From an uncultured Bacteriovoracaceae bacterium (GTDB lineage: Bacteria; Bdellovibrionota; UBA1018): DNA of 64,000 nucleotides. The notes under the pieces are model-generated. The model saw only the letters and a list, made by a program, of their open reading frames with translations. It was not told the origin of the DNA and made no database searches. The DNA is taken from assembly GCA_964363305.1 (NCBI GenBank), contig CAYIHX010000016.1, positions 6,824 to 70,823 on the forward strand, read 5' to 3'. Shown in pieces: positions 50,334 to 63,734 of the stretch (its first letter is position 1; each line of letters opens with the position of its first letter). Both the position numbers and the translations under genes were made by a program.

Positions 50334-50751
50334 GCGATACTTCGGCCTCCTTGCCGCCGGACTCCTCTGCCTCGCAGCAAACCTCTTTCTGGTGAGCCCT
50401 TACCTCCTAAAAATCGCCGGAGACCTTTGGGCCAACAGCATTTACGCGCTCCTTCGCATCGCCCTCTTCTTTGCAACTGGCTTCCTTCTCACCGTCCTCG
50501 CCGGACGGTCCCGCTATCAAAGCCTGATGGCTGCGGCTTTTTTGGCGCTCACGGAGCAGATCGCCTTTCGTGGCGGTGCACTTTTTGTAGACGCGGTCCG
50601 AAATCCAGCAGAATGGACCCATGCATCGACATCAGGCCTCATCTATGGACTTCTCATGGGCTTCATCACTTTCCTCCCCATCATCCTCATGCTGGCATGG
50701 GCAGGCACTGAAGCGGGCCGTCTCTGGCTGAAGCACCATCCGGATCAATGA
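50332..50751 (+). CDS. Hypothetical 4-TM membrane protein
   Basis: Hydrophobic profile only. Divergent from the NrfD-like gene. Confidence 0.35.
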
Positions 50752-52106
50752 CCCAGACGCATTGAAAAGCTGAATTCCTTGAGAACTTCGCGAGAAGGGC
50801 CCATGCCTGTCACTCGAACCTCCGCCCGCTCCCCTTTGCGTGAAAAATCAAAAACGGCGTAATTATTAATATTTGCACGACCAAAAATCTGGCGGCGATT
50901 GGGGTACTCGCCCCAACTCGATGGGAACACGACTGCATGAATTGCACTCGTCGTAAATTCATAGCTTTCATATCCCAAAATTTTCGGCTCAATTTTTTGA
51001 AACTCCAGCAGATGCCGGTCCCCACTCAAAAACACGAGCTTCGCCCCAGTCCTCTTGGCTCTCTCTAGCCAGCGAGCCAAGCTTCGAGGATGATTTGCCT
51101 CGTAGGACTCGAATTGCGGGGCGTACCCCCCCCAAAATTGGTCTCCATTGATCACCCAGTGCAGAAGCTTGCCCTTTTCGGAGAGGCCCCTGATGAGCCA
51201 ATCCTCCTGCTCTTTCCCCCAATGCGTCTCGGAAGTCCGAAAGGTTCGATCATCCATAAAATGGAACCGCAAGAAACCCCACTTGAGCACGCTCGAGATT
51301 CCTGGACCTTGTTCATACTGAGACCCCAGCGAATCACCGGGAAAGTAGTCGCGAAACAGCTTCGACACTAGGCTCAGCCCTGGCGTACCCTTGTGACTAT
51401 TATCCCGACCCACATCATGATCGTCCCAGGTCGTAAAAACAGGGATCAGACGTTCTTGGCGAAAAAGGGCGAGCGCCGAACGAGTTTCCCCGTAGCGTTT
51501 GACGACTTCCGCAAAACCAGGCTCCGGAGAAATGACCTTTCCACCCCTCCGATCGGCATAGGTGTTGTCGCCGATCAAGAAAAGGGCGTTGGGCCGCTCC
51601 CCCCATACTTGGCTCCACATTTTTTTTTGCAACTCGTCGTAGTAATCATCCATGCACGCGGCAACGACGATCCGAATAGGGTTCGCGGACGCCTGAAGAG
51701 GCGCAAGCAGGCGTTGATCAACCAGGCGTCCGCCCTCGGATACTCGAAGGCGGTATTCTGTTGATTCACGGAGCCCGTCGAAACGCGCCACCCGTAATTT
51801 CAGAGGGGAGGCCATTCGAATTTTTGACACCACTTGAACAGGCGCAACCGCCGTTCCATCGGCACCCACCAGACGCAACTCCGGTTCGTTCGGCCCAGTA
51901 AAGCCGACGACAACCGTTACGGTGGTGGCCGTAGAAGGTCCTTGAAGAATAGGCAGCGCACCAAAGCTCGGTGCAGAATCCGCCCAAGGTGCCGACGTAG
52001 TAACCCCCGACAGCGCGCCCCATAGGACGAACCACCGAAAGCCCTGTCGACCCCAAAAACTCCAGGATCTTCCAGAACTAAGCGAAGCGCTTCTGACGAG
52101 TCTCAC
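50745..52106 (-). CDS. PhoD-like phosphatase / metallophosphoesterase
   Basis: FLIGDNTYAD, TWDDHDVGRDNS and VFLSGDRHLLEF are characteristic PhoD-like metallophosphatase motifs. Signal region is Tat-like. Confidence 0.7.
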   Translation of the reverse strand: MRLVRSASLSSGRSWSFWGRQGFRWFVLWGALSGVTTSAPWADSAPSFGALPILQGPSTATTVTVVVGFTGPNEPELRLVGADGTAVAPVQVVSKIRMASPLKLRVARFDGLRESTEYRLRVSEGGRLVDQRLLAPLQASANPIRIVVAACMDDYYDELQKKMWSQVWGERPNALFLIGDNTYADRRGGKVISPEPGFAEVVKRYGETRSALALFRQERLIPVFTTWDDHDVGRDNSHKGTPGLSLVSKLFRDYFPGDSLGSQYEQGPGISSVLKWGFLRFHFMDDRTFRTSETHWGKEQEDWLIRGLSEKGKLLHWVINGDQFWGGYAPQFESYEANHPRSLARWLERAKRTGAKLVFLSGDRHLLEFQKIEPKILGYESYEFTTSAIHAVVFPSSWGEYPNRRQIFGRANINNYAVFDFSRKGERAEVRVTGMGPSREVLKEFSFSMRLGH

Positions 52107-57643: not shown

Positions 57644-58307
57644 AGGGCGGGGAAGCTGGCAGCCTCGACGAAGAGGAACTAGGGCGAGGAGGGGGCGGTG
57701 GAGGCGCCACCGGCCCGGAAGATACCATTCCCGGCACTAACTCCGTACACAGCCCCATCATCATGGAGCCCGTTTTCGGATCGGCCCTGAAACAAGGGAC
57801 CACCGTAGTCTTTACAACCTTCTCCGTGCGGAAATGATCTCTCTGAACGCGAAAAGCCAGGGTGAGCGGGCCCGCCTCCGCAGCTCCCTCCAGGCAAAGA
57901 AGTGCCGCCAAGATCGCCCCAGATCCCGATAGCCACCGACTCAATTTATTGCGCGTAAATGACGCGTAGCATCTAATTAGCGACAATCCTCGCCTCTCTT
58001 CTCTAAGACGGCTTTTCTGAAAGTTTCTGCAGTAAAATCGAACTGTTAGAAAATTGGCGAAGGGAGGGAAGGGGGGCAGGACGACGCGCGCGACAAGGCA
58101 ACCCAGACCAGCAGAATGAGGACCATCCAAAATCCCGCGTGCGTCGTTTTTTAACGCACCAGACAACGAGAAGAAATAATTGCCAGGGAAATCAACCTGT
58201 CAATCAATCTTCCTCCGTGCTACCCTGAACAGCGTCAGTCGCATATCGAGTTCCCGAGCATTGGGCTTATGTCCTCTTTAGCGGCACCCAGCCTTTCAGG
58301 AGGTCAC

Positions 58308-58658
58308 ATGGGCAAGAAACTATACGTTGGCAATCTCCCTTTTTCCGCAACCGATCAAAGCCTCATGGAGACGTTCTCTCAATGTGGAAAGGTAGAGTCT
58401 GCGAAGATCATCACAGACCGCGATACCGGGCGCAGCAAAGGCTTCGGCTTCGTCGAAATGTCGAGTGATTCGGAAGCTCAGACTGCGATTTCGAAGTTCA
58501 ATGGTACCGACCTCGATGGTCGCGCCATCACGGTGAATGAAGCACGTCCGATGGAACCCCGTGGAGCCGGCGGTGGCGGCGGCGGTGGTGGTGGACGCGG
58601 CGGCTTCGGCGGTGGTGGCGGCGGCGGCGGTGGCCGTGGCGGCAACCGTCGTTACTAG
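58308..58658 (+). CDS. Glycine-rich RNA-binding protein with a single RRM domain
   Basis: RNP2 KLYVGNL and RNP1 KGFGFVEM motifs. C-terminal GGGGGGGGRGGFGGGGGGGGGRGGNRRY tail. AGGAGG 6 nt upstream of ATG 58308. Confidence 0.85.
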   Translation: MGKKLYVGNLPFSATDQSLMETFSQCGKVESAKIITDRDTGRSKGFGFVEMSSDSEAQTAISKFNGTDLDGRAITVNEARPMEPRGAGGGGGGGGGRGGFGGGGGGGGGRGGNRRY

Positions 58659-58682
58659 GCTCCCCGGACTATAATCTCGGTA

Positions 58683-58730
58683 AGCGATTTCGGGAACAAC
58701 ACCCGAAATCGCTTCTTTGTATTTATTTCA
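58683..58730 (+). terminator. Rho-independent terminator
   Basis: Perfect 13-bp stem AAGCGATTTCGGG-aacaaca-CCCGAAATCGCTT followed by CTTTGTATTTATTT. Confidence 0.65.
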
Positions 58731-58745
58731 AACGATTGGATTTCT

Positions 58746-58943
58746 ATGGCAAAAGCGAACCGAGCCACCCAAGCGAAACGAAAACGCGAGCAAACCAGGA
58801 AAGAGCGCCAAGCAGAAAAGGGCGCAGATCGAGCTGTCCGCAAGGAGCAAAAAAAGCTTCGTGTGGACCTTAGTGAGTCTGGCGAAGATCCAGACCTGAT
58901 TGGTATATTTCCTGGTCCCCAGCCCGCACCGATGGAGGAGTAA
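58746..58943 (+). CDS. Small highly basic hypothetical protein (65 aa)
   Basis: Lys/Arg/Glu-rich (AKRKREQTRKERQAEKG...). Coding is uncertain. Confidence 0.3.
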   Translation: MAKANRATQAKRKREQTRKERQAEKGADRAVRKEQKKLRVDLSESGEDPDLIGIFPGPQPAPMEE

Positions 58944-58949
58944 TTCCGG

Positions 58950-59195
58950 ATGAGCCGTGAGACCGATGATTACGATTGCGACATTCGATTTGGCGAGTGG
59001 CTGAGATCAGCCCGCACCAAGCAACAGCTCACCGTCGAGGCGGCGGCGCAAAGTGCAGCGATGCCTGCCGAGCGCCTCAAAGCGCTCGAACTGGGGTACA
59101 GTGATCGAGGGATCACACAAGACGAGTCGGTTCGACTTTCCAAAGTCTATCGAATCCCCCTAGAAGAACTGCTGCGAGAAGCAACCCGAGCCTAA
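58950..59195 (+). CDS. XRE-family HTH transcriptional regulator
   Basis: FGEWLRSARTKQQLTVEAAAQSAAMPAERLKALELG is HTH_3-like. Confidence 0.55.
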   Translation: MSRETDDYDCDIRFGEWLRSARTKQQLTVEAAAQSAAMPAERLKALELGYSDRGITQDESVRLSKVYRIPLEELLREATRA

Positions 59196-59277: not shown

Positions 59278-61467
59278 ATGAGGATCCGAGCGCTTCTCAG
59301 CGTCATCCTATTGACTGGACTCGTCGCAGCCGAAAAAAGCTTCGGGGCGCCCTCTCCTCGTGACGAAGGGCCCGCGGCCCACCCATGTCCGGCCGAGTGC
59401 ACCCGATTCCTCGTTTTTCAAGCCCCGCTACAGCTCTTGCTGAACTCGCTTCCGGCCCTCACCGGACGGACGAATCCGAACGCAGAGACGCAGCCGTTCG
59501 CATTTCATTCATTCGAAGAGCTCGCGGCGCGCGAGCGGGCCACTGAGATCTGGCGGCAGATTCCTTCTCACTGCCGAGCCTCTGTCCTAGGAGCGGCGGA
59601 GCGGAGCCTTCTTACCGAACCACGGGTTCAGTTCCTCGCCCGAGTCCGGGCCGACACCCTCGCGCTCTCCAGCGCGGAGCGGGCGATGCGGCCCGGCTCC
59701 GCTCGCGCCTTCAGCGCATTGCAGGCAATCGCTTCCAGCTACTGCACCACCGTAGGCGCAAACGAAGTCGCGCGTATTGAGGCCGTAAGAGGACCGCTAC
59801 CCGACGAAACAACGGCGCCGGACCGCGGGCGCGCGTACCTCGCTTGCGCACAAGCCCGTGCGGGCGTCATCCGAGAAGAAATGGATCTGCTCTTGGCAAG
59901 GAATATTGACGTCATCAATCCCATCGTCCGCAGCGCATGGAGCGACGCGCCCACACTCACTCCGAATGACATCAAAGTTTTTCAGTTCCACCACCAGTTT
60001 TTCCAGAGGGAATCATTGCTGGAGGCGCTTGCCTTCGCCGCACGTGAAAGCCGATCCATGACCTTTCAGCAGAAGCTCATTGCCTGGCAACTGATGGGAA
60101 GCCAATACTTTGACCACTACCACCCTGACCGCCGAGACTCTCCGTCCAGGAATCCTGGGGCGGTTGACGGGGAAACCATTTTCCAAGCCAGCCGAAAAAC
60201 AATGCTCTTAGCTGCAAACCGCTGGATGTATGCCGGTGCCCCGCCAGGCGATTTCGAATACGCGGGCGTTTGCAGAGACATCGCGAGCGCTTTAGGTGAA
60301 ATCGCGCGTGCCATGGGAGTACGCGAAGCTTACGTCGTCGCTTTCGCCATCGACAACAGCTATCACACGACTCTGGTCGTGCGAAATCCCGAGGATCCTG
60401 ACCATGTCCACATGCTCGACTATGGGGAAGTCGGCCTGAGGCGCGCGGGAGACTCCCGCGCACTCCAAGGCACCCCGAACGAACAGGGCCTCGTCTTTCG
60501 AATCGCACAGCCCGGCGGTAGAAGCGTCATGACCACGGCGAGCGAATTAGGGCGATTTCTGACTGAGGCCTCGGGACTAGACCCCACCGCGACCGATCCG
60601 CTGAGCCGATTGAGGAGCCAACTCATCGTGGCCGACATCCCCATCGCCTCTCGACCGGGCAGCTCCATCCGAACGGGGATCGCTCAGGACGGCAGAGGGG
60701 ACCGGCATGTATTCGGAGCATTTACGGATTCGTGGGGGGCGCGCTCCATTTTACCGGGCCGATCCGCAGTCGTCGTGGGCGCGCGAATGCGGGAAGACCC
60801 AGTCGGCGATTCACGATATTTGGGTTACCTCGCGATCGCGCTCGAGCAGCACCTTCGCCCGGAAGCGCGCATAAACGATCGCACGGTTTTCTATTCCGAT
60901 ACCAGCTTCCACGGCTTGGCCTATGCCGGTCCCGACGTCGCCACACAGACGGGCACCGTTTCTCGAGCAGCGGACGGAACCATGAGTCTCCGTGAGGAAA
61001 TCGGAATTCGACACCGCTTCTCGGAACGAGGCTCGATCAGCGCTCGCGTCGGCGCCATTGTCAGTCCCGGAACTTTGGATATCCGTGACCTGTCCGCGCC
61101 GATTGTTCCCATCCTCGACCACGCCTATGGCGCGGCGGAAGCTCGCGTACCTCTTAGCCCTGACTTGCTGCTTTTTGCGAACGCGATGCTCATCGCCCAC
61201 GATGAGTTTGTTGCGAGAGGTCGGCTTCGAGTCGGCGTCGAGTCACCGGTCGCGTCAGCCTCTCTCGAAGTCGAAGGTTCTCTCGGTGAGTGGAGCGGAA
61301 TCGACCCGGGGTTTCTTGAGGGAAGTCGACGGCGTGCGATCGCGAATTTTGTCCTCAACCCCATTCCGGAAGTCTCGATTCGCGCCACCGGCTCGATGGA
61401 TCTAGAAGAGGGCCCGGACGGGGAACGCGACGTTTCCGCTACCGGATCGGTGGAGACTCGATGGTGA
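59278..61467 (+). CDS. Large secreted hypothetical protein (~730 aa)
   Basis: Signal peptide MRIRALLSVILLTGLVAA. No recognisable catalytic motif. 7-nt overlap with the next gene. Confidence 0.45.
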   Translation: MRIRALLSVILLTGLVAAEKSFGAPSPRDEGPAAHPCPAECTRFLVFQAPLQLLLNSLPALTGRTNPNAETQPFAFHSFEELAARERATEIWRQIPSHCRASVLGAAERSLLTEPRVQFLARVRADTLALSSAERAMRPGSARAFSALQAIASSYCTTVGANEVARIEAVRGPLPDETTAPDRGRAYLACAQARAGVIREEMDLLLARNIDVINPIVRSAWSDAPTLTPNDIKVFQFHHQFFQRESLLEALAFAARESRSMTFQQKLIAWQLMGSQYFDHYHPDRRDSPSRNPGAVDGETIFQASRKTMLLAANRWMYAGAPPGDFEYAGVCRDIASALGEIARAMGVREAYVVAFAIDNSYHTTLVVRNPEDPDHVHMLDYGEVGLRRAGDSRALQGTPNEQGLVFRIAQPGGRSVMTTASELGRFLTEASGLDPTATDPLSRLRSQLIVADIPIASRPGSSIRTGIAQDGRGDRHVFGAFTDSWGARSILPGRSAVVVGARMREDPVGDSRYLGYLAIALEQHLRPEARINDRTVFYSDTSFHGLAYAGPDVATQTGTVSRAADGTMSLREEIGIRHRFSERGSISARVGAIVSPGTLDIRDLSAPIVPILDHAYGAAEARVPLSPDLLLFANAMLIAHDEFVARGRLRVGVESPVASASLEVEGSLGEWSGIDPGFLEGSRRRAIANFVLNPIPEVSIRATGSMDLEEGPDGERDVSATGSVETRW

Positions 61468-63734
61468 AGAGACTCTCCCGTCTCACTCTATTTGCCATCT
61501 TTCTGAATCTCCTTCCTTTGTCTCAGGCATTTTGTGCCCCCCCCCAAGGCGATCCACCGGAGATCCGAAGACTCTCCAGAATTCTCACCAAAATTCAAAC
61601 GGCACTCGCCACTCAGTACGGCTTCGATCAGATCATGATTGGCGGTGGATCGGCGCGAGCGATCCTGGATCATGTCTATTTCGGCGGCCCACTGCAATTC
61701 AGGGATTTAGACATTTTCGTTGTGGCGCACCAAACGGTGACATCAAAGTTTGCGGACGATCTGGGCCGAGCATTAGAAGCCACCCACCTCGGTACCTACC
61801 AGCCAAACGAACTACGACCCCGCCCCAGAGGGGGAACAAATGCCGGTTTTGGATTCTCTCTGAATACCTCTGCGGGGGATATCATCGACCTCTCCATCTA
61901 TCACTCAGATGCGGCTCTCGATCGAAACGGTATTTTTGATGTGGATCGGGTGATGATCCCTCTCCGTCAGGGCGAATCGCTGCAATCGACGCTCGCAAGA
62001 ATGGTGAGTGTAACGCCGAATCAAGCGATCAGGCGCAACTGGATCATCGACCGTGAGGGAGGGTATCCTGCATGGCAAAGGCAACGCCCCTCTATCGTCA
62101 ATTGGGGAGAGATTGAGCGTGATCCCATTCTTCAGTCCATCCGGGTTCTGAGAACCTACCTGAGAAGCGGAAGACGTTCGCTTCCTCTCGAGGTCAGAAG
62201 GCGCCTCAAGACACTTATCGAAGGAGTTTCGGAAACCAATCGGCTCCAAATCGTTCGCAATACCCTCAAACTTCTTCACGACCCAGAAGCGGCTTTCGCG
62301 CTAAAAGAGCTCGGAGCAATCGGGTTTTTTGAAAAGATCTCTCCGGCGCTAGGACGATGGATTTCCGGCCAAAGCATTGCTAAACTCACTCAACTCTTAG
62401 GCCCAAACCAACTCTCGGACGTGCCCTCCGCTGCGGAACGACTGACCCGACTTCTCGAGAGAGTCTCACCGAGAGAGCGCTTACCATTCCTACGAACTCT
62501 CCGCCAAGTGGAGCCCGAATTTTTTTCTCACGAAATTTCACGTCTGATCCGTCCCAGACGCGGTCAAGCGCCCTTGAGGCTCGGATATTTTACCGGCGAC
62601 TTCGCGCCGTTTCATAATGGCCATTTATCGGTTGCCCAGGCCGCGTTGAATGCGGGACCCTTGAATCTTCTCTTCATTATACCGACTCCGCACGCGACGA
62701 ATGATCCCAAAACCAAACGCTTTAGCATCGAGGAGTGGCGGGAAAGGCAGCGCTTCGTCGATTTGGGCTCACGTAGCGAAGACCGGATCATCCCTTGGTG
62801 GCCCGTAGAAACTCCTCCCTCAAGTGGAAAGCCGCAGCTCAGGGACATCCTTTCAAACCTTGAAAGATCCATCGGCAGCCCAGGCCAGCTGACTCATGTC
62901 GCCGGAGGCGATTCACTCCATCGCATTGTAGGACGAAATCTTCTCGTGACTGATCCAAGGCCGAGGATAGTGGTCACCCGTGGAGAGTTGCCCATTCCTG
63001 TGGGGGCCACCACTCCTGAATCTGGTGTGCGACTGATTCGACGCGAAGGCGAGCTACCCGTATCCTCTACGCGAATCCTGCACGAGCTGGCGGCCCAAGG
63101 TCATACCAGCCACCTAACTCCAGCGGTCCTTGAAGAGGTGCAACGCCTTCCGCGTTACCAAGAGATCGTCGAAGATCTTCGGGAACACGCGGCAGATATC
63201 CGAAGACTGCCCGCTCGTGCGCGCGATCTCGATCGAGATCCTCGCACCTTTATTTTAGACCTTTCACAAAACCCTGACGGTCATTACATCTCTGCTGAGG
63301 ATGGTCTTCCTCGACCGACGGATGGCTACTTTGAACTCATTCGATCCCTAGTCACTCGCCCCACCGATCAATTTCTCATCTTTCTCGGAAACGATCCCCC
63401 CAAGGACGCAGCCCTGGAATGGAGCTTGGCTACCCTACGGCTAAGAAATCGTCAGGTTTTGATCACTCGAGATTACCGCCACATCAAACCACGCGATCGA
63501 ATTCGAGTTTTTGATTCAGGTATCGCCGCCCACCTACTTGAGACCGGCGGCCTTTTTGAAAAGGTACTTGCAAGACAACGAATCATTACCTACGACTTCA
63601 ATCATGCTCCTGCCTCGCCCCTCCTCGAAGCGGCCCATATTCCCGTCATCAGACTCTCCTCCACATCAGGAACGATACCTCACGGGTGCATCCCTTTGAG
63701 GGACGTAGTGACTGAACTCACGTTGGTAAAATAA
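61461..63734 (+). CDS. Signal-peptide protein fusing a Pol-beta-superfamily nucleotidyltransferase domain to a NadD/NMNAT-like (H-x-G-H) adenylyltransferase domain
   Basis: MVKRLSRLTLFAIFLNLLPLSQAFCA signal. IGGGSARAILDHVYFGGPLQFRDLDIFVV fits the G[GS]...D-x-D NTase motif. GYFTGDFAPFHNGHLSVAQAALNAGPLNLLFIIPTPH parallels NadD GGTFDPIHYGHL...IIP. Confidence 0.55.
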   Translation: MVKRLSRLTLFAIFLNLLPLSQAFCAPPQGDPPEIRRLSRILTKIQTALATQYGFDQIMIGGGSARAILDHVYFGGPLQFRDLDIFVVAHQTVTSKFADDLGRALEATHLGTYQPNELRPRPRGGTNAGFGFSLNTSAGDIIDLSIYHSDAALDRNGIFDVDRVMIPLRQGESLQSTLARMVSVTPNQAIRRNWIIDREGGYPAWQRQRPSIVNWGEIERDPILQSIRVLRTYLRSGRRSLPLEVRRRLKTLIEGVSETNRLQIVRNTLKLLHDPEAAFALKELGAIGFFEKISPALGRWISGQSIAKLTQLLGPNQLSDVPSAAERLTRLLERVSPRERLPFLRTLRQVEPEFFSHEISRLIRPRRGQAPLRLGYFTGDFAPFHNGHLSVAQAALNAGPLNLLFIIPTPHATNDPKTKRFSIEEWRERQRFVDLGSRSEDRIIPWWPVETPPSSGKPQLRDILSNLERSIGSPGQLTHVAGGDSLHRIVGRNLLVTDPRPRIVVTRGELPIPVGATTPESGVRLIRREGELPVSSTRILHELAAQGHTSHLTPAVLEEVQRLPRYQEIVEDLREHAADIRRLPARARDLDRDPRTFILDLSQNPDGHYISAEDGLPRPTDGYFELIRSLVTRPTDQFLIFLGNDPPKDAALEWSLATLRLRNRQVLITRDYRHIKPRDRIRVFDSGIAAHLLETGGLFEKVLARQRIITYDFNHAPASPLLEAAHIPVIRLSSTSGTIPHGCIPLRDVVTELTLVK

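What the first reader, a model, noticed from the sequence alone, without database searches (positions are those of the whole stretch)
61461..63734. Signal-peptide protein combining a Pol-beta-type nucleotidyltransferase with a NadD-like adenylyltransferase
A cleavable-looking Sec signal precedes a minimal NTase fold (GGGSARAILDHVYFGGPLQFRDLDIFV) and, ~330 aa later, an H-x-G-H nucleotidyltransferase motif in NadD-like context (GYFTGDFAPFHNGHL...LLFIIPTPH). Nucleotide-processing enzymes are not expected in the periplasm or outside the cell. Possibilities include a secreted nucleotide-modifying effector (AMPylation, NAD-derived signals), extracellular NAD salvage, or the signal being an uncleaved membrane anchor for a defence-type NTase. 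It is co-transcribed with another ~730-aa secreted protein, following an XRE regulator.
Basis: partly seen in the sequence, partly recalled or inferred. Interest (0 to 1): 0.55.

Follow-up and report, generated by a model that had tools for sequence, protein, structure and literature searches.

The report
Exported double nucleotidyltransferase, predatory-bacteria family
This gene encodes a signal-peptide-bearing protein that joins a tRNA-CCA-enzyme-like nucleotidyltransferase to a NadD-like adenylyltransferase. It belongs to a small, undescribed family whose only named relatives are in predatory Bdellovibrionota, so NTP-using enzymes appear to be sent outside the producer's cytoplasm.

Summary
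ORF 61461..63734 (757 aa) is a real gene. It has an N-terminal Sec-type signal and a Pol-beta-superfamily nucleotidyltransferase with intact G-S / DxD / third Asp. An HxGH adenylyltransferase lies 323 residues further on, and its closest relatives are NadD enzymes.

Two refinements apply. The N-terminal enzyme is not a "minimal" NTase. It is a divergent class-II tRNA-nucleotidyltransferase/poly(A)-polymerase-like head and neck, without the tRNA-binding body and tail. The last 170 residues are a second, degenerate HIGH-type Rossmann domain.

The N-domain defines a small family with no Pfam model: 163 cluster representatives among 1.84 billion. In 37 of 52 long members it is fused to a cytidylyltransferase-like domain, in either order. 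When unfused it can sit next to one, or next to a signal-bearing pyruvate-kinase-barrel gene. Most fused members carry signal peptides. All four named genomic relatives are Bdellovibrionota.

No defence or secretion-system neighbours were found. The pairing with the upstream 729-aa exported protein is not conserved elsewhere.

My best reading is an exported, catalytically competent dual nucleotidyltransferase acting on prey-derived nucleotides. Substrates are unknown. I rate it a new variant of known enzyme kinds, of moderately high interest.

The parts
61461..63734 (+). Whole gene, 757 aa plus stop
   Evidence: ORF list. Homologues at E down to 1e-118. AF2 model pLDDT 90.6, pTM 0.87.
61450..61455 (+). 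Shine-Dalgarno-like GTGGAG, 5 nt before the ATG, lying inside the end of the upstream gene
   Evidence: Read directly from the sequence.
61461..61529 (+). Sec-type signal peptide, aa 1-23 (MVKRLSR / LTLFAIFLNLLPL / SQA|F)
   Evidence: Heuristic n-h-c analysis. The model has low pLDDT for aa 1-30. A comparable segment occurs in 34/47 long family members against 17/808 control segments.
61548..62519 (+). Class-II tRNA-nucleotidyltransferase/poly(A)-polymerase-like head (aa ~30-170) and helical neck (aa ~171-353)
   Evidence: Profile vs PDB: Bst CCA-adding enzyme 1MIV E 1.2e-8, Aquifex 3WFO E 2.7e-8, Tma 3H37 E 8e-7, E. coli PAP 3AQM E 5e-4. Foldseek: 4wby, 3h37, 3wfq and FAM46A 8exf at E 3e-7 to 3e-6. 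No Pfam model matches.
61641..61712 (+). Motif A: G61-G-G-S64 ... D82-L-D84, the metal-binding carboxylates
   Evidence: Family conservation: D82 118/121, D84 120/121, G62 112/120. Invariant among the 8 closest members.
61887..61889 (+). D143, the putative third catalytic carboxylate, in strand IIDLSIYH
   Evidence: D in 99/121 and E in 3/121. On strand E141-147 of the model. Its assignment as third carboxylate is an inference.
62556..63215 (+). NadD-like HIGH-type adenylyltransferase domain, aa ~366-585
   Evidence: Pfam PF01467. NCBIfam TIGR00125 above cut-off. Profile vs PDB: the top 16 hits are all NadD, best 1KAM E 1.8e-13 over the full length. Foldseek 5deo/3dv2/1kaq TMt 0.70-0.77.
62613..62624 (+). 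H385-N-G-H388, the (H/T)xGH motif
   Evidence: G and the second H are invariant and the first position is H or T in 21 family domains. Aligned to PPHNGH of 1KAM.
63063..63071 (+). S535-S-T537, equivalent to the ISSTxxR nucleotide-binding motif
   Evidence: The first Ser is invariant in the family. Aligned to VSSTMIR of 1KAM. The Arg is at +1 instead of +3.
63216..63731 (+). Second, degenerate HIGH/HUP-type Rossmann-like domain, aa 586-757
   Evidence: Separate AF2 model pLDDT 85. Best Foldseek match NadD 5deo_A (E 4.8e-3, TMq 0.54), followed by pantothenate synthetases and PPAT. Weak hhalign link to the NadD-like domain (E 1.2e-3, probability 19%). The family motifs HSGxxN and ETxDxPLSP read DSGIAA and DFNHAPASP in this protein.
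59278..61467 (+). Upstream neighbour: 729-aa signal-bearing protein with a transglutaminase-like Cys core. It overlaps the target by 7 nt, and the association is not conserved.
58950..59195 (+). Small XRE-type HTH protein (81 aa) at the head of the gene row
   Evidence: Four HTH Pfam families at E 1.5e-4 to 0.06, all below their gathering scores. Weak PADLOC HTH hits.

Best explanation
The gene encodes a Sec-exported, three-domain nucleotide-processing enzyme of a lineage related to predatory Bdellovibrionota.

After signal cleavage (around Ala23) the mature protein has three parts:
(i) a class-II CCA/poly(A)-polymerase-like Pol-beta nucleotidyltransferase with all metal-binding carboxylates, but without the tRNA-binding body and tail and without the canonical base-template motif;
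(ii) a NadD-like HIGH-type adenylyltransferase with intact HxGH and SxT motifs but altered acceptor-binding positions;
(iii) a degenerate second HIGH-type domain that probably serves as a non-catalytic partner or ligand-binding lobe, forming a pseudo-dimer with (ii).

The two active domains work together on one nucleotide pathway outside the producer's cytoplasm. NTPs are absent from an ordinary periplasm, so the substrates are most likely nucleotides released from, or present in, prey cells. I propose this division of labour: the HIGH-type site forms or pyrophosphorolyses a pyrophosphate-linked dinucleotide of the NAD/NaAD type, and the Pol-beta-type site adds or removes an NMP at a ribose hydroxyl. 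The net role would be harvesting or interconverting prey nucleotides.

Shown: the domain identities, catalytic-residue conservation, the fusion and neighbourhood coupling, the conserved export signals, and the taxonomy of the named relatives.

Inferred: actual export, activity, the prey-derived substrate pool, the direction of the reactions and the acceptors.
For: - Domains and folds.
- High-confidence compact model, pTM 0.87 for three domains.
- Catalytic residues conserved.
- N-domain coupled to HIGH-type NTases. 37 of 52 long members have PF01467. The domain order is swapped in P0002/P0003/P0051. An unfused N-domain gene lies next to a signal-bearing CTP_transf_like gene in L011.
- The other partner domains are also nucleotide or phosphoryl enzymes. 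They are Ham1, a pyruvate-kinase barrel, HIT-related and APH-like kinase domains. The PK barrel occurs as a fusion in P0105 and as an adjacent gene with its own signal in L012.
- Signal peptides: all 8 closest members; 34/47 long members against 2% of control segments. The +3 N-flank and 13-residue h-region place the bulk of the protein outside whether or not the signal is cleaved.
- All four named genomic relatives are Bdellovibrionota MAGs.
- Published proteomics notes that Bdellovibrio extracts nucleotides from prey and up-regulates a secreted nuclease (PMC12546842).
Against: - No experiment and no dedicated predictor (SignalP) was available, so export is inferred from a heuristic plus conservation.
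- The organism of the window is not identified. The relatives are only 31-38% identical, so a predatory lifestyle is an extrapolation.
- Many stand-alone family members lack a signal (30/77 flagged), so the N-domain itself is not intrinsically extracytoplasmic.
- No substrate can be assigned. The CCA-enzyme base template (EDxxR) and the RRD motif, and the NadD acceptor positions SYTxDT and Trp, are not conserved.
- In the window's copy the third domain departs from the family consensus at its best-conserved positions.
- Nothing in the literature searched mentions such a protein.
Confidence: 0.4

Rival explanations
1. Prey-directed toxin or effector. The exported protein enters prey. There it nucleotidylates a macromolecule, for example by adding nucleotides to tRNA/RNA 3' ends or AMPylating a protein. 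Alternatively it drains ATP/NAD into a dead-end nucleotide. Either way its role would be to disable prey rather than to harvest nucleotides.
For: The class-II NTase-like domain has an intact active site, and its homologues act on RNA 3' ends. The export signal is conserved. The named relatives are in predatory lineages. The fused or adjacent PK barrel could supply ATP on site.
Against: There is no RNA-binding body or tail domain. No immunity-like small gene was seen next to the gene in the loci surveyed. There is no polymorphic-toxin architecture or secretion-system neighbour. The partner domains (Ham1, HIT, kinase, hydrolase) look metabolic rather than toxic.
Confidence: 0.25
2. Envelope or surface decoration. 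The HIGH-type domain would activate a phospho-alcohol (as CCT, ECT or TagD do) to an NDP-alcohol. The Pol-beta-fold domain would then transfer the phospho-alcohol to a surface polymer, as LicD and fukutin-type enzymes do.
For: The HIGH-type superfamily includes phospho-alcohol cytidylyltransferases, and ECT has a tandem active-plus-degenerate arrangement like the one here (established knowledge). One family member fuses an APH/choline-kinase-like domain (P0110). L003/L007 neighbours include a sugar transferase and an acyltransferase.
Against: The profile and fold best hits are NadD, not CCT or TagD. The N-domain is homologous to CCA/PAP enzymes, not to LicD. The activation steps of such pathways are cytoplasmic. 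The neighbourhoods are not conserved.
Confidence: 0.1
3. Not exported. The N-terminal hydrophobic segment would be an uncleaved membrane anchor or an annotation artefact, and the enzyme would be a cytoplasm-facing NadD-fusion working in ordinary cofactor metabolism.
For: No dedicated signal predictor was run. Some family members lack any signal.
Against: The charge distribution (+3 before the hydrophobic stretch, net negative after it) orients the bulk of the protein outside. The 13-residue h-region is too short for a membrane helix. The signal recurs in distant relatives, some of them with lipobox-like Cys. The protein fails the NadD equivalog cut-off by a wide margin.
Confidence: 0.07
4. Anti-phage defence nucleotidyltransferase, of the CBASS/CD-NTase or MNT-HEPN type, controlled by the XRE regulator.
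For: A Pol-beta NTase lies downstream of an XRE/capH-like HTH gene (weak PADLOC hits at E 3e-4 and 2e-3 for the HTH only). A very weak head-domain similarity to CD-NTase entries 6P82/6P8U (E 0.14).
Against: There were no PADLOC hits for the protein or its upstream partner. No effector or defence genes occur in the neighbourhoods checked. A signal peptide is incompatible with cytoplasmic sensing. Homology is to class-II tRNA NTases.
Confidence: 0.03

Closest known systems
NadD, bacterial nicotinate-mononucleotide adenylyltransferase (EC 2.7.7.18; PDB 1KAM, 1K4K, 5DEO)
   Same: Same HUP Rossmann fold over the whole domain (TMt 0.70-0.77). Full-length profile match (E 1.8e-13). HxGH, GxD and SxT motifs are in register.
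   Different: It scores far below the NadD equivalog cut-off (23.5 vs 112.45). The SYTxDT motif and stacking Trp that hold NaMN are not kept; the family has its own GxDSxxR and DPRPR motifs. It is embedded in an exported 757-aa protein rather than being a roughly 200-aa cytoplasmic enzyme.
Class-II tRNA nucleotidyltransferases and bacterial poly(A) polymerase I (PDB 1MIV, 3H37, 3WFO, 3AQK)
   Same: Pol-beta head with a GG(S/A)xR...DxD motif and a homologous helical neck: DxxGG, then the DP...R..R helix, then the LxK(L)L helix (E 1.2e-8). Fold matches.
   Different: No body or tail domains. RRD of motif B reads L-N-G. The base-template ED..R aligns to D221-P222..Q225. Pfam PolyA_pol does not detect it. 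It carries a signal peptide.
FAM46/TENT5 non-canonical poly(A) polymerases (PDB 8EXF)
   Same: A two-lobed NTase plus helical domain of similar size, with a similar Foldseek score (E 2.6e-6, TMt 0.50).
   Different: No sequence-level signal. TENT5 proteins are eukaryotic and cytoplasmic.
Ethanolamine-phosphate cytidylyltransferase (ECT/Pcyt2), a tandem HIGH-type enzyme (from established knowledge, not tested here)
   Same: Two cytidylyltransferase-like domains in tandem, one with a degraded HxGH.
   Different: ECT is a cytoplasmic eukaryotic lipid-synthesis enzyme. The best hits here are NadD, not CCT or ECT.
Exported nucleotide enzymes already known (from established knowledge): periplasmic nucleotidases UshA/NadN/CpdB, and secreted nucleotide-synthesising toxins such as Tas1
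   Same: They are precedents for nucleotide chemistry outside the producer's cytoplasm, and for effectors that use the target cell's ATP.
   Different: Those are hydrolases or RelA/SpoT-type pyrophosphokinases delivered by T6SS. None combines a CCA-like NTase with a NadD-like domain behind a Sec signal.

Membership tests
NadD (nicotinate-nucleotide adenylyltransferase, TIGR00482) | HUP-class Rossmann fold of about 190-215 residues | tested here: met
   Foldseek 5deo_D E 4.1e-8, TMt 0.76; 1kaq TMt 0.74.
NadD (nicotinate-nucleotide adenylyltransferase, TIGR00482) | (H/T)xGH motif at the end of strand 1 | tested here: met
   H385-N-G-H388 aligned to HNGH of 1KAM. G and the second H are invariant in the family.
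NadD (nicotinate-nucleotide adenylyltransferase, TIGR00482) | C-terminal ISSTxxR motif | tested here: inconclusive
   V-S-S-T-R-I-L at 534-540 aligns to VSSTMIR. The Ser and Thr are kept, but the Arg is at +1 instead of +3, and the family consensus is ISATxIL.
NadD (nicotinate-nucleotide adenylyltransferase, TIGR00482) | Curated whole-protein score cut-off | tested here: not met
   23.5 bits vs cut-off 112.45. All NadD equivalog models score far below their cut-offs.
NadD (nicotinate-nucleotide adenylyltransferase, TIGR00482) | NaMN-binding SYTxDT motif and the stacking Trp after GxD | tested here: not met
   In the profile alignment to 1KAM these positions fall on a non-conserved stretch and on GxDSxhR. 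The test is alignment-based only.
Class-II tRNA nucleotidyltransferase / poly(A) polymerase (PF01743 + neck) | Motif A, GGxVRD...DxD | tested here: met
   IGGGSARAIL...RDLDIF; conservation; non-significant local alignment to GGAVRDLL of 1MIV.
Class-II tRNA nucleotidyltransferase / poly(A) polymerase (PF01743 + neck) | Homologous neck domain (motifs C-E) | tested here: met
   Profile hits 1MIV E 1.2e-8, 3WFO E 2.7e-8, 3H37 E 8e-7, 3AQM E 4.7e-4.
Class-II tRNA nucleotidyltransferase / poly(A) polymerase (PF01743 + neck) | Motif B RRD and motif D EDxxR (ribose and base selection) | tested here: not met
   The corresponding stretches read L-N156-G157 and D221-P222-x-x-Q225. Bst D154 and R157 align to P222 and a non-Arg position. 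The motif definitions come from established knowledge.
Class-II tRNA nucleotidyltransferase / poly(A) polymerase (PF01743 + neck) | Body and tail domains that bind tRNA/RNA | tested here: not met
   The N-domain ends at about aa 353 and is followed directly by the NadD-like domain.
Class-II tRNA nucleotidyltransferase / poly(A) polymerase (PF01743 + neck) | Detection by the Pfam family model | tested here: not met
   No PolyA_pol hit at E <= 1.
Sec type-I signal peptide | Positive n-region, 7-15-residue h-region, small residues at -3/-1 | tested here: met
   Own heuristic: +3 n-region, 13-residue h-region, S-Q-A|F. Recurs in relatives. SignalP was not available.
Anti-phage defence NTases (CBASS CD-NTase, MNT and others in PADLOC) | Match to a defence-system model, with effector genes nearby | tested here: not met
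   No PADLOC hit for the protein. No defence genes in the neighbourhoods checked.

The most novel reading that the evidence does not exclude
Predatory bacteria export a self-contained nucleotide-synthesising toolkit that runs on the prey's own metabolites outside the predator's cytoplasm. The toolkit would comprise a CCA-like nucleotidyltransferase, a NadD-like adenylyltransferase and, in some lineages, an ATP-regenerating pyruvate-kinase barrel and a Ham1 pyrophosphatase. It would either make a previously unknown nucleotide product, or recover prey RNA and NAD as energy-rich NTPs by pyrophosphorolysis. This would be a new class of predation factor and the first extracytoplasmic NTP-dependent nucleotidyltransferase pathway in bacteria.
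Probability: 0.25. Interest if true: 0.85.

Novelty: new variant of a known kind. Interest (0 to 1): 0.62.

Why it matters
NTP-dependent nucleotidyltransferases are textbook cytoplasmic enzymes. A conserved family that sends two of them through the Sec pathway implies nucleotide synthesis or interconversion in a compartment that normally has no ATP. In some relatives a pyruvate-kinase barrel or a Ham1 pyrophosphatase goes with them.

In predators that live inside prey this compartment is flooded with prey metabolites. The family could therefore explain part of how such bacteria capture nucleotides and phosphate-bond energy, or it could be a new type of prey-killing effector.

It also defines an undescribed branch of the class-II CCA/poly(A)-polymerase superfamily, one with a rebuilt nucleotide-selection site. 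Its chemistry can be tested directly with purified protein.

Tried and rejected
- PADLOC scan of the protein, its upstream partner and the HTH gene gave only weak HTH hits. Defence reading rejected.
- Neighbourhood survey of family loci found no conserved neighbour, secretion-system gene or immunity-like gene. Sources: the look-up of encoding contigs, genome scan loci L005-L008.
- A TetR plus alpha/beta-hydrolase pair near two loci (L001, L002), together with an alpha/beta-hydrolase fusion in P0005, was noted but is too thin to use.
- Link with the upstream 729-aa gene rejected. tblastn found no homologue in L001-L008. Its two homologues lie in unrelated contexts.
- The metagenome scan returned only 7 mostly short loci, so no statistical neighbourhood analysis was possible.
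- Rfam found no riboswitch or other RNA in the window.
- The sequence-only PDB search for the C-terminal domain found nothing. Its assignment rests on fold plus a weak hhalign hit.
- Exact look-ups of window proteins to identify the source assembly failed, and cluster look-up gave no names.
- Four literature searches and two papers on Bdellovibrio genomics and proteomics contain nothing on such a protein.
- The viral structure library only re-found tRNA NTases and NMNATs.

Full report
OBSERVATION. It is a genuine gene. It has homologues at E 1e-118 to 1e-54 in the 5.8-billion-protein collection. An AlphaFold2 model built on a 124-sequence alignment has mean pLDDT 90.6 and pTM 0.87. Low confidence is confined to residues 1-30 and to the last 20 or so residues.

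The quoted motifs are present: G61-G-G-S64 ... R81-D82-L-D84, and H385-N-G-H388, which lies 323 residues further on. Pfam finds only CTP_transf_like, at residues 376-422 (E 7e-5, above the gathering score). NCBIfam finds the adenylyl/cytidylyltransferase core domain just above its cut-off. It also returns a series of NadD equivalog models, all far below theirs; the best is TIGR00482 at 23.5 bits against 112.45.

ANATOMY. Four parts can be told apart.

(1) Residues 1-23 form the signal. MVKRLSR carries +3 charge, LTLFAIFLNLLPL is a 13-residue hydrophobic core, and S-Q-A precedes F24. No other hydrophobic window exists in the protein. The ATG at 61461 is the first possible start after a stop. 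The next Met (residue 59) lies inside the conserved domain, so the hydrophobic segment cannot be avoided by choosing another start.

(2) Residues about 30-353 have no Pfam model.
- A profile of the eight closest members weakly hits Aquifex class-II tRNA nucleotidyltransferases (E 0.02).
- A profile of 124 family members hits the Bacillus stearothermophilus CCA-adding enzyme 1MIV at E 1.2e-8. It also hits the Aquifex enzymes at about 3e-8, the Thermotoga enzyme at 8e-7 and E. coli poly(A) polymerase at 5e-4. All of these align on the helical neck.
- Foldseek on the model returns the same enzymes and FAM46A/TENT5 (E 3e-7 to 3e-6).
- So this domain is a divergent class-II CCA/PAP-like head plus neck, not a minimal NTase.
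- The catalytic carboxylates are kept across the family: D82 118/121, D84 120/121, D143 99/121.
- By established motif definitions, two canonical elements are changed. RRD (ribose selection) reads L-N156-G157. In the base template ED..R, the two template residues (Bst D154 and R157) align to P222 and a non-arginine position.
- The tRNA-binding body and tail domains are absent.

(3) Residues about 366-585 are a HIGH-type adenylyltransferase.
- A 21-sequence profile of this domain matches B. subtilis NadD over its full length (E 1.8e-13). The top sixteen PDB hits are all NadD.
- Foldseek gives TM 0.70-0.77 on NadD chains.
- HxGH, GxD and S-S-T are in register.
- The NaMN-holding SYTxDT motif and the stacking Trp are not conserved. 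The family has its own invariant GxDSxxR and a near-invariant DPRPR.

(4) Residues 586-757 were modelled separately (pLDDT 85).
- They resemble NadD best (5deo_A, E 4.8e-3, TMq 0.54), followed by pantothenate synthetases and PPAT.
- There is a weak profile-profile link to domain 3.
- This is a second, degenerate HIGH-type domain, and the HxGH position has decayed.
- The window's copy departs further from the family's best-kept motifs: HSGxxN reads DSGIAA, and ETxDxPLSP reads DFNHAPASP.
- I infer a non-catalytic partner lobe.

THE FAMILY. An exhaustive HMM search with the N-domain found 163 cluster representatives at E <= 1e-3 among 1.84 billion, and no spill-over into ordinary CCA enzymes. This is a small, distinct family.

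- Roughly 60% of the 124 aligned representatives are shorter than 450 aa and consist of essentially this domain alone.
- Of the 52 members of 450 aa or more, 37 carry PF01467.
- The order of the modules can be inverted: P0002/P0003 have NadD-like plus degenerate domain first, and P0051 is also swapped.
- Other fused partners are Ham1/ITPase, alpha/beta hydrolase, a pyruvate-kinase barrel, a HIT-related domain, an APH/choline-kinase-like kinase and an ADH_N domain.
- An unfused N-domain gene lies next to a CTP_transf_like gene in L011. That protein has its own signal peptide.
- In L012 another unfused N-domain gene is followed, 3 nt later, by a pyruvate-kinase-barrel-only gene with a signal or Tat-like N-terminus.

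Fusion in both orders plus adjacency is classical evidence that the Pol-beta-type and HIGH-type enzymes act in one pathway.

EXPORT. All eight closest members have signal-like N-termini, as do P0009, P0010 (lipobox-like), P0012 and P0013. With a simple rule (10-residue hydrophobic peak plus a basic n-region), 34 of 47 long members and 24 of 29 with an HxGH-like motif are flagged. Only 17 of 808 control segments starting at internal Met are flagged.

Many short stand-alone members have no signal, so cytoplasmic versions also exist. The charge bias and the short h-region place the catalytic domains outside the cytoplasmic membrane whether or not the signal is cleaved.

CONTEXT. The window is ordinary chromosomal DNA of a Gram-negative bacterium. 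It encodes a TonB receptor, an SLT, a DnaE-type polymerase, urocanase, an ABC transporter and a PhoD-like phosphatase.

The gene row runs as follows:
- a strong terminator at 58682-58714 after an RRM-protein gene;
- a small basic ORF at 58746-58943;
- an 81-aa XRE-type HTH gene at 58950-59195;
- a 729-aa signal-bearing protein at 59278-61467;
- the target, overlapping the previous gene in ATGGTGA and preceded by GTGGAG.

Co-transcription is plausible but only inferred. The upstream protein has just two homologues, and neither is near a family member. Loci L001-L008 hold no homologue of it. The neighbourhoods of the surveyed loci share nothing consistent and contain no defence or secretion-system genes. 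PADLOC finds nothing for the protein.

The GTDB-representative scan found four relatives, all in Bdellovibrionota MAGs: Pseudobdellovibrionaceae, Bdellovibrio sp., Bdellovibrionales and Bdellovibrionota. The window's own genome could not be identified.

MECHANISM. The following is shown:
- two nucleotidyltransferase domains of different superfamilies, both with intact catalytic motifs, packed with a third degenerate domain into one confident model;
- evolutionary coupling of the two enzyme types;
- conserved export signals;
- named relatives only in a predatory phylum.

The following is inferred. The protein is exported and active. An ordinary periplasm has no NTPs, so the enzyme most likely uses nucleotides that leak from, or reside in, prey. 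I commit to a nucleotide-processing role (confidence 0.4). In this reading the HIGH-type site forms or pyrophosphorolyses an NAD-type dinucleotide, and the CCA-like site adds or removes an NMP at a ribose hydroxyl. The partner domains elsewhere in the family fit a metabolic toolkit better than a single-hit toxin: Ham1 (NTP to NMP plus PPi), the PK barrel (ATP from PEP plus ADP), HIT, and a kinase. Published work notes that Bdellovibrio extracts nucleotides from prey (PMC12546842).

The main rival (0.25) is a prey-directed effector that nucleotidylates RNA or protein, or drains ATP or NAD. The lesser rivals are:
- envelope decoration through an NDP-activated phospho-alcohol (0.1);
- a cytoplasm-facing anchored enzyme (0.07);
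- a defence NTase (0.03).

COMPARISON AND NOVELTY. Each fold is known. The protein works like a NadD and like a CCA/PAP head-neck, but it is a member of neither family by their defining features (see the membership table). I found no description of this family, its architecture or its export in Pfam, NCBIfam, PADLOC, the source annotations or the literature searched. One JGI record simply calls a relative "nicotinate-nucleotide adenylyltransferase". I therefore rate it a new variant of known kinds, of moderately high interest. The interest lies in the conserved export of NTP-dependent enzymes and the link to predatory bacteria, not in a new fold.

CAVEATS.
- No dedicated signal-peptide predictor was used, no experiment was done and no model coordinates were available for active-site geometry.
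- Motif equivalences to the RRD and EDxxR motifs of CCA enzymes, and to the NaMN-binding residues of NadD, rest on profile alignments and textbook motif definitions.
- The taxonomy rests on four named MAGs.
- The lifestyle of the window's organism is unknown.

Noticed in passing
window 59278-61467 (+): The upstream 729-aa protein has a signal-like N-terminus (MRIRALLSVILLTGLVAA). It has an invariant GVCRDIASAxG plus His363, reminiscent of a transglutaminase-like cysteine core (Pfam only E 0.2). It ends in an aromatic residue (...VETRW; the homologue ends ...GRF), which could indicate an outer-membrane barrel. Only two homologues exist among 5.8 billion proteins.
   Followed up: partly
window 58746-58943 (+): A 65-aa, very basic ORF (MAKANRATQAKRKREQTRKERQAEKG...) sits between a strong terminator (58682-58714) and the XRE gene, 6 nt before the latter. 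Whether it is a real gene was not tested.
   Followed up: no
window 58269-58658 (+): An RRM-domain RNA-binding protein with a Gly/Arg-rich tail (PF00076, E 3e-24), followed by a 13-bp-stem terminator.
   Followed up: no
L012 5980-8198: A stand-alone, signal-bearing N-domain protein (P0013) is followed 3 nt later by a 368-aa pyruvate-kinase-barrel-only protein. That protein has its own signal or Tat-like N-terminus (MLRTFDARRTRPVLLGTASVICALALLG...). A pyruvate-kinase-like protein carrying an export signal is itself unusual. P0105 fuses the two domains.
   Followed up: partly
L011 6827-9140: An unfused N-domain gene (P0011, no obvious signal) is divergently adjacent to a 337-aa CTP_transf_like protein that does have a signal peptide.
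   Followed up: partly
L001 10001-13145: The 278-aa CTP_transf_like ORF after P0008 starts without a plausible N-terminus. Together with P0008 it reproduces the architecture of P0007/P0014 (NTase + NadD-like + Ham1-like + second cytidylyltransferase). It is probably one gene split by a frameshift or assembly error.
   Followed up: no
window 63216-63731 and alignment A6: Nearly all members of the degenerate C-terminal domain keep a single Cys 5-15 residues from the C-terminus (C in ...HGCIP... here). Its role is unexplained.
   Followed up: no
L001 and L002: A divergent TetR plus alpha/beta-hydrolase gene pair lies within a few kb of the family gene in two unrelated loci, and P0005 fuses an alpha/beta hydrolase to the same protein. 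This may be a weak functional link or coincidence.
   Followed up: no
window 50745-52106 (-): A PhoD-like phosphatase gene lies about 9 kb upstream. It is another typically exported phosphoester-processing enzyme in the same region.
   Followed up: no
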